Source of the DNA: a virus
Taxonomy: Duplodnaviria; Heunggongvirae; Uroviricota; Caudoviricetes
DNA length: 7,777 nucleotides
Virus record (IMG/VR): IMGVR_UViG_2645727743_000027
Direction: 5' to 3' (one strand)
Position 1 is the first letter of the stretch; each line of letters starts with the position of its first letter. Position numbers and translations under genes: made by a program. Below are positions 7,541 through 7,715 of the stretch, piece by piece. A model generated the notes under the pieces. The model was not told where the DNA came from. It searched no databases and saw only the letters and a list, made by a program, of their open reading frames with translations.

Positions 7541-7569
7541 TTGACAATCTGACCGTGAAGGCATACTTT
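7541..7569 (+). promoter_or_regulatory. Predicted promoter for the Sib-like antisense RNA: TTGACA (7541-7546), 17-nt spacer, TACTTT (7564-7569)
   Basis: Consensus -35 and a plausible -10 with 17-nt spacing, positioned to start transcription about 36 nt beyond the 3' end of the ibs ORF on the opposite strand. Confidence 0.45.
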
Positions 7570-7575
7570 CAGGAG

Positions 7576-7715
7576 TGAGGGTTGAGCGGGGTTTCCCCCG
7601 CCCTGGTAGTCTTAGTAAGCCGGGAAGCTTATGACTAAGAGCACCACGATGATGATCCACTTCATCATGACCCTTTCCTTATTTATGGCCCCTTCCTCGG
7701 GAGGGGCTTTCCCGT
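7576..7715 (+). ncRNA. sib: Predicted Sib-type antisense sRNA (about 140 nt), fully overlapping the ibs ORF
   Basis: Predicted promoter upstream, full antisense overlap of the 18-aa ORF, and a GC-rich hairpin (7687-7707) followed by TTTCCCGTTT as a likely 3' end. Size and arrangement fit the Sib/Ibs type I toxin-antitoxin family. Ends are approximate. Confidence 0.55.
7612..7668 (-). CDS. ibs: Ibs-family type I toxin, 18-aa hydrophobic peptide MMKWIIIVVLLVISFPAY
   Basis: Minus-strand ORF with an AAGGAAAGGG Shine-Dalgarno upstream; the peptide closely resembles E. coli Ibs toxins (for example IbsC MMRLVIILIVLLLISFSAY, from memory). Under 60 aa so not in the ORF track. Which paralog it is cannot be decided here. 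Confidence 0.8.
   Translation of the reverse strand: MMKWIIIVVLLVISFPAY

What the first reader, a model, noticed from the sequence alone, without database searches (positions are those of the whole stretch)
7541..7715. Intact Ibs toxin and Sib antisense unit immediately adjacent to the prophage
An 18-aa hydrophobic ORF with a strong Shine-Dalgarno lies on the - strand, fully overlapped by a predicted ~140-nt + strand RNA with its own promoter and terminator-like hairpin. The neighbouring copy A unit has lost its toxin ORF and, by position, the promoter of its antitoxin RNA. How the integrated phage affects dosage of the remaining toxin-antitoxin unit is an open question.
Basis: partly seen in the sequence, partly recalled or inferred. 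Interest (0 to 1): 0.5.

Follow-up and report, generated by a model that had tools for sequence, protein, structure and literature searches.

The report
Known Ibs/Sib toxin-antitoxin unit beside prophage
The flagged stretch is an ordinary, already catalogued E. coli Ibs/Sib type I toxin-antitoxin repeat; the half-copy next to it is the scar left where an HK022-like prophage integrated into the neighbouring repeat.

Summary
Window 7541-7683 (+) matches Rfam SIB_RNA at 137.6 bits (E 3e-29). The opposite strand (7668 to 7612) encodes MMKWIIIVVLLVISFPAY. This peptide passes Pfam Ibs_toxin (41 bits, cut-off 27). It is identical to RefSeq WP_012767741.1, the third Ibs unit of the E. coli B yegL-mdtA array, and 89% identical to K-12 IbsB. 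This is a known type I toxin-antitoxin unit, not a new one.

The truncated "copy A" did not decay. It is a prophage attachment junction. The prophage Int is 95% identical to HK022 Int and the 73-bp P' arm is HK022-like. The 7-bp overlap, however, is CCTTATT (7349-7355) rather than HK022's TTCACCT. CCTTATT lies in every Sib unit of this array, inside the ibs Shine-Dalgarno region and the single-stranded 3' part of Sib. In a related genome the missing half (sib promoter plus ibs ORF) sits at the far prophage end, behind the same 7 bp. The int-side junction occurs in 84 of 5,426 complete E. coli genomes.

The intact unit carries its own sib promoter, terminator and toxin ORF. An effect of the phage on its dosage is therefore unlikely, though untested. 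Interest is low. The retargeted att site is a modest side result.

The parts
7577..7712 (+). Sib antitoxin RNA (SibB-type), about 136 nt
   Evidence: Rfam RF00113 at 137.6 bits, E 3e-29 over 7541-7683. Ends are placed by alignment to annotated K-12 sibB. The fold shows P1, three hairpins, single-stranded CCUUAUUUAUG and a terminator, z -4.1. The structure is shared with SibA-E, with 7 compensatory pairs.
7541..7569 (+). sib promoter: -35 TTGACA (7541-7546), 17-bp spacer, -10 TACTTT (7564-7569)
   Evidence: Read from the sequence. TTGAC is invariant in all nine Sib units aligned. The generic scan did not flag it. Assignment rests on homology.
7687..7708 (+). Sib terminator hairpin (9-bp stem, CUCG loop), followed by UUCCCGUUUC
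   Evidence: Fold. Compensatory changes occur in this stem among the paralogues.
7612..7668 (-). ibs toxin ORF, 18 aa plus stop: MMKWIIIVVLLVISFPAY
   Evidence: Translation. Pfam PF13956 at 41 bits against a cut-off of 27. 100% identical to E. coli B unit 3 (WP_012767741.1) and 89% to K-12 IbsB.
7671..7680 (-). ibs ribosome-binding region AAGGAAAGGG (AAGGA sits 7 nt before the ATG)
   Evidence: Read from the sequence. Conserved in all units.
7670..7690 (.). Unoccupied potential attB core in the intact unit: ACCCTTT|CCTTATT|TATGGCC
   Evidence: Same 7-bp overlap as the occupied site. Compare the canonical HK022 attB AACCTTT|TTCACCT|AAAGTGC.
7349..7355 (.). 7-bp crossover (overlap) sequence CCTTATT at the prophage-chromosome junction
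   Evidence: It is the only segment shared by the int-side junction, the far junction in L010 and the empty site in E. coli B.
7276..7348 (+). Phage P' arm (73 bp), ending in the core-type Int site CAACTTA (7342-7348)
   Evidence: Aligns to the HK022 attP P' arm and core. [quoted passage not shown]
7356..7540 (.). Remnant of the split unit ('copy A'): Sib terminator hairpin (7359-7380), the region upstream of ibs, and the inter-unit spacer. No ibs ORF and no sib promoter.
   Evidence: Direct repeat 7345-7447 / 7673-7775. 7345-7777 matches uninterrupted E. coli B, C and O111 arrays at 99.3-99.5%.
6202..7275 (+). HK022-type tyrosine integrase gene
   Evidence: ORF list. 95% amino-acid identity to HK022 Int over 357 aa.
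6006..6224 (+). excisionase gene
   Evidence: ORF list. Annotated as excisionase in the homologous prophages and in HK022.

Best explanation
Window 7541-7715 is one complete unit of the chromosomal Ibs/Sib type I toxin-antitoxin repeat array that lies between yegL and mdtA in E. coli.

**How the unit works.** The - strand encodes an 18-aa hydrophobic IbsB-type peptide. The + strand encodes a ~136-nt Sib RNA that is fully antisense to the ibs ORF and its ribosome-binding region. By analogy with the experimentally studied SibC/ibsC pair, Sib pairs with its own ibs mRNA through two regions. One lies inside the ORF (TRD1). The other covers the translation-initiation region (TRD2, the single-stranded CCUUAUU... 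segment just before the terminator). Pairing represses ibs expression and results in degradation of the mRNA, so the membrane-damaging peptide is not made.

**What copy A is.** The half unit to its left (7349 to about 7480) is the right-hand product of integration of a lambdoid prophage. That prophage carries an HK022-type int/xis/attP module whose 7-bp overlap is CCTTATT. Integration cut the neighbouring Sib/Ibs unit inside the ibs Shine-Dalgarno region. The Sib terminator and the region upstream of ibs stayed on this side. The sib promoter and the ibs ORF went to the far prophage end.

**Shown versus inferred.** Shown: family membership of the RNA and the peptide, the antisense geometry, the junction anatomy, and its recurrence in other genomes. 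Inferred: that both genes are transcribed, that this peptide variant is toxic, that Sib represses it, and that the phage leaves the intact unit's dosage unchanged.
For: - **RNA and peptide.** Rfam SIB_RNA full-length hit, 137.6 bits. Pfam Ibs_toxin 41 bits against a cut-off of 27.
- **Identity to known units.** The unit is identical to E. coli B unit 3 and the peptide is identical to WP_012767741.1, annotated 'type I toxin-antitoxin system Ibs family toxin'.
- **Locus.** K-12 has yegL-sibA/ibsA-sibB/ibsB-mdtA.
- **Structure.** Conserved Sib fold with 7 compensatory pairs.
- **Mechanism.** TRD1/TRD2 and cognate-only repression are described in PMC2943612.
- **Junction anatomy.**
  - HK022 attP: CAACTTA|TTCACCT|AAAGGAT
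  - window: CAACTTA|CCTTATT|TAAGGCC
  - empty site in E. coli B: ACCCTTT|CCTTATT|TAAGGCC
  - far junction in MFDS1001074: ACCCTTT|CCTTATT|AAAGGAT, followed by an HK022-like P arm
- **Integrase.** 95% identical to HK022 Int.
- **Recurrence.** The junction is present in 84 of 5,426 complete E. coli genomes. It is kept across diverged P' arms.
Against: - No expression data could be consulted, so transcription of either strand is unverified for this strain.
- The generic scan does not call the sib promoter or terminator.
- The ibs promoter is partly beyond the window end.
- K-12 IbsB, the closest named relative, is annotated only as a 'putative' toxic peptide. Toxicity of the W4/I5 variant is an extrapolation.
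- No free phage genome with a CCTTATT attP was found. The phage attP is therefore reconstructed from the two prophage junctions, not observed directly.
Confidence: 0.93

Rival explanations
1. The unit is a silent or non-toxic repeat relic. The ORF and RNA are conserved as part of a recombining tandem array, but this IbsB-type copy is not expressed or its peptide is harmless. On this reading there is no working toxin-antitoxin pair here.
For: - K-12 ibsB is annotated only as a 'putative toxic peptide', whereas ibsA, ibsC and ibsE are called 'toxic peptide'.
- The peptide is one residue shorter than IbsA, C, D and E.
- The ibs promoter cannot be seen in full inside the window.
Against: - The ORF, the Shine-Dalgarno region, the sib promoter -35 and all helices are intact.
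- The unit is identical to one kept in E. coli B and in other lineages.
- The peptide passes the Pfam family threshold over the whole profile.
- The residues invariant across the nine Ibs sequences aligned here (M1, M2, I6, I7, L10, L11, S14, Y18) are all present in this peptide.
Confidence: 0.1
2. The prophage changes the behaviour of the intact unit. An outward-reading promoter in the HK022-type P' arm, of the kind shown to drive torS in HK022 lysogens, fires on the + strand into the remnant.

One outcome is a short chimeric RNA containing CCUUAUUUAAGG plus the Sib terminator. The other is read-through into the intact unit, sense to Sib and antisense to ibs. Either would raise antitoxin-like RNA.
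For: - PMC6814406 shows a phage-encoded outward promoter near attL of HK022, conserved among HK022-type prophages.
- The P' arm here is homologous and has the same 73-bp length.
- A + strand promoter-like site, ATGACC-18-GATAAT, lies at 7293-7322. Its GATAAT is invariant in all eight aligned arms.
Against: - The exact HK022 start site could not be read from the text, and the authors saw no clear -10 or -35.
- The remnant's own terminator hairpin (7359-7380) lies within about 30-50 nt of any such start. It should stop most transcripts.
- Published data say TRD2 needs the P1 stem to work (PMC2943612), and a chimeric RNA would lack that stem.
- No expression data are available.
Confidence: 0.15
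3. The prophage sits beside the Sib unit by accident, through a rare secondary-site insertion of an ordinary HK022-type phage or through an assembly artefact. On this reading it does not come from a phage lineage that targets Sib units.
For: - No free phage with a CCTTATT attP was found in INPHARED or IMG/VR.
- Several of the prophages at this site are degraded or rearranged.
Against: - The same junction occurs in 84 complete genomes. Their P' arms have diverged to about 90-97% identity.
- A nearly identical phage arm (99.1% over the window) sits in different units of the array in different strains.
- Both junctions in one genome carry the identical 7 bp. By the established lambda-Int strand-exchange model, a mismatched-overlap event would leave the two junctions with different overlaps.
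Confidence: 0.03

Closest known systems
SibB/IbsB (and SibA/IbsA) of E. coli K-12, yegL-mdtA intergenic region
   Same: - Same locus type and same 328-bp repeat unit.
- Same promoter, helices and terminator.
- The peptide is 16 of 18 residues identical to IbsB.
- The RNA aligns without gaps to sibB.
   Different: - Two residues differ (L4W, L5I), with matching base changes in Sib. There are a few further changes in the 5' hairpin and the central loop.
- These fall in the regions that vary among the units aligned here. PMC2943612 reports that the TRD1/TRD2 recognition domains lie in the highly variable regions of Sib RNAs. The correspondence of positions was not mapped here.
- The exact variant is the third of four units in E. 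coli B (WP_012767741.1). It is not a K-12 gene.
SibC/IbsC, the experimentally dissected pair (Han et al. 2010, PMC2943612)
   Same: - Same Rfam and Pfam families.
- Same antisense geometry and same overall fold: P1 closing stem, internal hairpins, single-stranded J1/7, terminator.
   Different: - Different locus (fau-serA).
- 19-aa peptide, 67% identical.
- Its J1/7 reads CTCCTTC, so it lacks the CCTTATT overlap used by the prophage.
- The mechanism is transferred by homology and was not tested for this unit.
Phage HK022 site-specific recombination module (Int/Xis, attP; attB between torS and torT)
   Same: - Int is 95% identical.
- The P' arm has the same 73-bp length.
- The core-type sites CAACTTA and AAAGGAT are identical.
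- The P arm is HK022-like at the far junction.
   Different: - The 7-bp overlap is CCTTATT, not TTCACCT.
- The target is the Sib/Ibs repeat, not torS-torT.
- The bacterial half-sites resemble the canonical ones only in part: ACCCTTT against AACCTTT, and TAAGGCC against AAAGTGC.
Other tandemly repeated chromosomal type I toxin-antitoxin loci (Ldr/Rdl; ZorO/OrzO)
   Same: Each has a small hydrophobic toxin, an RNA antitoxin, tandem duplication within one intergenic region, and strain-to-strain variation in copy number (PMC2887945).
   Different: They are unrelated in sequence. Their antitoxins overlap the toxin mRNA only partly or are divergently encoded, whereas Sib covers the whole ibs ORF.

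Membership tests
Sib antitoxin RNA (Rfam RF00113) | Sequence and structure match to the family covariance model above its gathering score | tested here: met
   137.6 bits against a gathering score of 56, E 3.3e-29, model positions 1-147 of 147, not truncated.
Sib antitoxin RNA (Rfam RF00113) | Encoded exactly antisense to, and fully covering, an ibs ORF | tested here: met
   RNA at about 7577-7712 (+). ORF at 7612-7668 (-).
Sib antitoxin RNA (Rfam RF00113) | Expressed as a ~110-150-nt RNA that represses its cognate ibs mRNA | not testable with these tools
   No expression data are available. The promoter and terminator are assigned by homology to annotated K-12 sibB. The generic scan did not call them.
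Ibs type I toxin (Pfam PF13956) | 18-19-aa hydrophobic peptide matching the family profile above its gathering score | tested here: met
   41 bits against a cut-off of 27, E 1.7e-10, profile positions 1-19 of 19. The query was padded with 4 upstream out-of-ORF residues to reach the tool's 20-aa minimum. 67-89% identity to IbsA-E. NCBIfam gave no Ibs hit.
Ibs type I toxin (Pfam PF13956) | Toxic when over-produced (membrane depolarisation, growth arrest) | not testable with these tools
   Inference only. The nearest named relative, K-12 IbsB, is annotated as 'putative toxic peptide'.
yegL-mdtA Sib/Ibs tandem array | Chromosomal position and ~328-bp repeat unit shared with other E. coli | tested here: met
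   7345-7777 matches uninterrupted arrays of E. coli B, C and O111 at 99.3-99.5%. The repeat spacing is 328 bp. mdtA itself lies beyond the window end and is seen only in related loci.
HK022-type integration module | Integrase and arm/core-type sites homologous to HK022 | tested here: met
   Int is 95% identical. The P' arm and CAACTTA are present in the window. AAAGGAT and the P arm are present at the far junction of L010.
HK022-type integration module | 7-bp overlap AGGTGAA/TTCACCT and attB between torS and torT | tested here: not met
   The overlap here is CCTTATT and the target is a Sib unit. The canonical site GCACTTT|AGGTGAA|AAAGGTT was read from K-12. This is a variant of the module, not HK022's own specificity.

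The most novel reading that the evidence does not exclude
A lineage of lambdoid phages has kept the HK022 integrase and core arm sites but swapped the 7-bp overlap of attP from TTCACCT to CCTTATT. This redirects integration from torS-torT to the repeated Sib/Ibs units of the yegL-mdtA array.

- **Several landing sites.** Every unit of the array carries CCTTATT, so the array offers several tandem sites. A nearly identical phage arm (99.1% over the window) is found in different units in different strains.
- **A clean split.** The crossover falls exactly in the ibs Shine-Dalgarno region and the Sib TRD2 segment. Lysogeny therefore reversibly uncouples a toxin ORF from its promoter and an antitoxin RNA from its terminator.
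- **Possible chimeric RNAs.** At the far junction, Sib would run on into the phage P arm. At the near junction, a P'-arm transcript would end at the Sib terminator. Excision would rebuild the unit.

Probability: 0.25. Interest if true: 0.5.

Novelty: already known. Interest (0 to 1): 0.2.

Why it matters
The flagged feature adds nothing new. Ibs/Sib units are described, modelled in Rfam and Pfam, and annotated at this exact sequence in RefSeq.

The value of the check is twofold:
- It shows that the 'degenerate copy A' is an att junction, not decay.
- It documents a natural retargeting of the HK022 recombination module by a change of overlap. This fits the experimentally known tolerance of HK022 Int for any overlap that matches between the two partners (PMC7736782).

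The tandem toxin-antitoxin array thereby becomes a multi-copy phage landing pad. That may contribute to copy-number variation in the array and to the prophage-mediated chromosome rearrangements seen in related strains. The physiological consequences are untested.

Tried and rejected
- **Generic promoter/terminator scan of 7200-7777.** It called neither the sib promoter nor the Sib terminator. I relied on homology to annotated K-12 sibB instead.
- **NCBIfam scan of the peptide.** No Ibs model was hit, only a sub-threshold unrelated match. Pfam did hit.
- **Far prophage junction from the best whole-window match, AMSHJX01, and from strain D1.** Both are rearranged: the far end lies at ybhB/bioA and at yghD/gsp respectively. 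They were unusable. MFDS1001074 gave a clean pair of junctions.
- **Search for a free phage carrying the reconstructed attP.** The exact 22-mer in IMG/VR gave 0 hits. An 18-mer gave one unrelated chance hit, L013. blastn of a reconstructed 259-nt attP against INPHARED gave HK022 at 86.9% as the best hit, with the HK022 overlap.
- **Literature searches for prophage integration at ibs/sib or yegL-mdtA.** None in the searchable library describes it.
- **HK022 outward start site from the eLife supplements.** The sequences are there but the start position is marked only in a figure.
- **Reading of copy A as a decayed pseudogene unit.** Rejected. It matches the intact array at 99.3-99.5% up to the junction, and its boundary is exactly the 7-bp overlap.

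Full report
**1. What is at 7541-7715**

The - strand carries an 18-codon ORF: ATG at 7668, stop at 7614-7612. It encodes MMKWIIIVVLLVISFPAY. Upstream it reads AAUAAGGAAAGGGUC, and the AAGGA lies 7 nt before the ATG.

The + strand gives a full-length, untruncated match to Rfam RF00113 (SIB_RNA) at 7541-7683. The score is 137.6 bits against a gathering score of 56, E 3.3e-29. The Rfam model begins at the -35 hexamer.

Aligning the unit to the annotated K-12 sibB RNA (alignment) places the transcript at about 7577-7712. The promoter is then TTGACA (7541-7546), 17 bp, TACTTT (7564-7569). The terminator hairpin pairs 7687-7695 with 7700-7708.

Folded alone, the RNA forms:
- a closing stem,
- three internal hairpins,
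- a single-stranded CCUUAUUUAUG segment,
- the terminator.

The energy is -61 kcal/mol, z -4.1, and none of 200 shuffles folds as well. The same architecture is predicted for an alignment with SibA-E and one further E. coli B unit. Seven base pairs are kept through changes on both sides.

The generic consensus scan flagged neither the promoter nor the terminator. Those two elements therefore rest on homology. The window ends at 7777, about 109 nt upstream of the ibs ATG, so the ibs promoter cannot be fully inspected.

**2. Family membership**

The peptide was padded with four upstream residues to reach the tool's 20-aa minimum. It scores 41 bits against Pfam PF13956 (Ibs_toxin; cut-off 27) over the whole 19-position profile. 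NCBIfam returned nothing relevant.

The peptide's identity to known Ibs peptides is as follows:

| Compared with | Identity |
|---|---|
| K-12 IbsB | 89% |
| K-12 IbsA | 78% |
| K-12 IbsC, D, E | 67-72% |
| E. coli B, third unit | 100% |

RefSeq annotates that third E. coli B unit as WP_012767741.1, 'type I toxin-antitoxin system Ibs family toxin'. The 190-nt unit is base-for-base identical to E. coli B unit 3.

K-12 has two units between yegL and mdtA (sibA/ibsA and sibB/ibsB). E. coli B has four, spaced 328 bp apart. Window 7345-7777 matches uninterrupted arrays in E. coli B, C, O111 and others at 99.3-99.5%. The feature is therefore a known, annotated gene pair.

**3. How it most likely works**

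This is transferred by homology. For SibC/ibsC, Han et al. (PMC2943612) showed two independent target-recognition domains:
- TRD1 pairs inside the ibs ORF.
- TRD2 is the single-stranded J1/7 segment before the terminator. It pairs with the translation-initiation region.

Each Sib represses essentially only its cognate ibs, and repression results in degradation of the ibs mRNA.

The differences between this unit and K-12 sibB fall in regions that vary among the units aligned here (GATCCAC against GAGTAGC, GCCGGG against GCGGGG). That is what one expects if each unit of the array is a self-contained cognate pair.

Toxicity of this particular variant is an inference. K-12 IbsB is annotated only as 'putative toxic peptide'.

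**4. The surroundings: copy A is an att junction**

Window 1-7348 is the early-left arm of a lambdoid prophage. It carries ral, cIII with its thermoregulator, kil, gam, bet, exo, ant, xis (6006-6224) and int (6202-7275).

The int/xis/P'-arm DNA is 94-96% identical to HK022, mEp235, Gally and Stx1a phages of the HK022 integration type. The Int protein is 95% identical to HK022 Int. As in HK022, 73 bp separate the int stop from the junction (PMC6814406).

The att sites, written in window orientation:

| Site | Left core | Overlap | Right core |
|---|---|---|---|
| HK022 attP | CAACTTA | TTCACCT | AAAGGAT |
| Window junction (7342-7362) | CAACTTA | CCTTATT | TAAGGCC |
| Unoccupied site, E. coli B unit 2 | ACCCTTT | CCTTATT | TAAGGCC |
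| Far junction, MFDS1001074 | ACCCTTT | CCTTATT | AAAGGAT, then an HK022-like P arm |
| Int-side junction, same genome | GAACTTA | CCTTATT | TAAGGCC |
| Canonical attB, K-12 torS-torT | AACCTTT | TTCACCT | AAAGTGC |

The segment shared by both junctions and the empty site is exactly 7 bp. This matches the 7-bp overlap of HK022 att sites, which must be identical in attP and attB (PMC7736782).

By the established lambda-Int strand-exchange model, an insertion with mismatched overlaps would leave different overlaps at the two junctions. Here they are the same. The phage attP must therefore itself read CAACTTA|CCTTATT|AAAGGAT. That attP is reconstructed, not observed. No free phage carrying it was found.

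**5. Consequences of the cut**

CCTTATT (7349-7355; its unoccupied twin is at 7677-7683) is the reverse complement of AAUAAGG, part of the ibs ribosome-binding region. In Sib it is the start of the single-stranded TRD2 segment.

On this side of the prophage, what remains is:
- the Sib terminator hairpin (7359-7380),
- the region upstream of ibs,
- the inter-unit spacer up to the next sib promoter.

Any ibs-type transcript from the remnant would run into the P' arm and the 3' end of int. It would meet only a 3-codon reading frame, so no toxin can be made from it.

In MFDS1001074 the sib promoter and the ibs ORF, with its Shine-Dalgarno intact, sit at the far end. They are followed by the phage P arm. 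RefSeq still annotates that ibs ORF.

Among the K-12 paralogues, only the yegL-mdtA units carry the exact 7 bp. sibC reads CTCCTTC, sibD reads CCTTCTG and sibE reads CCTTATA. This explains the locus specificity.

**6. Recurrence**

A 161-nt probe spanning the junction is covered at 80% or more in 84 of 5,426 complete E. coli genomes. Seven such junctions were aligned. Their P' arms have diverged, yet all keep AACTTA|CCTTATT|TAAGG, apart from one degraded copy with a 1-nt insertion.

The prophage arm closest to the window (99.1% identity) sits in the last unit before mdtA in AMSHJX01 and similar strains. In the window, D1 and MFDS1001074, the prophage is followed by a further intact unit. Different units of the array therefore serve as attB.

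Literature searches found no description of this integration site.

**7. The dosage question**

The intact unit has its own sib promoter, RNA body, terminator and ibs ORF. It is identical to the same unit in prophage-free strains. Sib acts on its cognate target. The simplest expectation is that its dosage is unchanged.

One possible influence comes from Carey et al. (PMC6814406). They showed that HK022-type prophages carry an outward-reading promoter near the P' arm, and that it drives the adjacent host gene. Here such a promoter would fire on the + strand into the remnant's Sib terminator. A promoter-like site with an invariant GATAAT lies at 7293-7322. Any read-through would be sense to Sib, so it would favour repression of the toxin. 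This is speculative.

**8. Verdict**

The observation and the interpretation are confirmed. The feature is an already known Ibs/Sib unit. The neighbouring half copy is explained as a prophage junction. The only mildly new element is the natural retargeting of an HK022-type attP to the Sib/Ibs repeats.

Noticed in passing
window 7342-7362; L010 34232-34252 and 49258-49278: The prophage uses an HK022-type Int (95% identical) and HK022 core arm sites. Its 7-bp overlap is CCTTATT instead of TTCACCT, so it integrates into Sib/Ibs units rather than at torS-torT. 84 of 5,426 complete E. coli genomes carry this junction. No free phage with this attP was found.
   Followed up: yes
window 5170-5258 (+): Rfam sRNA-Xcc1 (RF02221) match at 69.3 bits (gathering 53), E 2e-11. 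It lies in the prophage just upstream of the ant gene (5298-5921) and overlaps a 67-codon ORF (5092-5295).
   Followed up: no
window 812-870 (+): Full-length Rfam match to the lambda cIII thermoregulator element (88.5 bits), at the start of the cIII ORF. This confirms the lambda-like early-left operon.
   Followed up: no
L002/L005 (E. coli AMSHJX01, NZ_CP030939.1): The prophage closest to the window has its int end next to mdtA. Its other end, which carries the nleH, cif and espJ effector genes, abuts ybhB-bioA, the lambda attB region. This implies a large chromosomal rearrangement between two lambdoid prophages.
   Followed up: partly
L006 (E. coli D1, NZ_CP010134.1): The Sib-locus prophage is truncated and its far end abuts yghD/gsp instead of yegL. 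This is another rearrangement or deletion involving this prophage.
   Followed up: partly
window 7293-7322 (+) and 7336-7309 (-): There are two promoter-like sites inside the 73-bp P' arm. The + strand one (ATGACC-18-GATAAT) points out of the prophage towards the Sib remnant, and its -10 is invariant in eight aligned HK022-type arms. It may correspond to the outward promoter reported for HK022 lysogens (PMC6814406).
   Followed up: partly
window 7372-7379 versus 7700-7707: The remnant's terminator stem reads GGGGGGGC where the intact unit and most other genomes read GGAGGGGC. This turns a U-A pair into U-G and leaves the hairpin intact.
   Followed up: no
L015, L016, L017 (strains 2013C-3342, UTME-9, RM14723): At the same Sib junction the integrase gene is annotated as an incomplete pseudogene lacking its N-terminus. 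An IS91- or IS3-family transposase lies just upstream in two of the three. Many of the Sib-locus prophages are therefore decaying remnants locked in place.
   Followed up: partly
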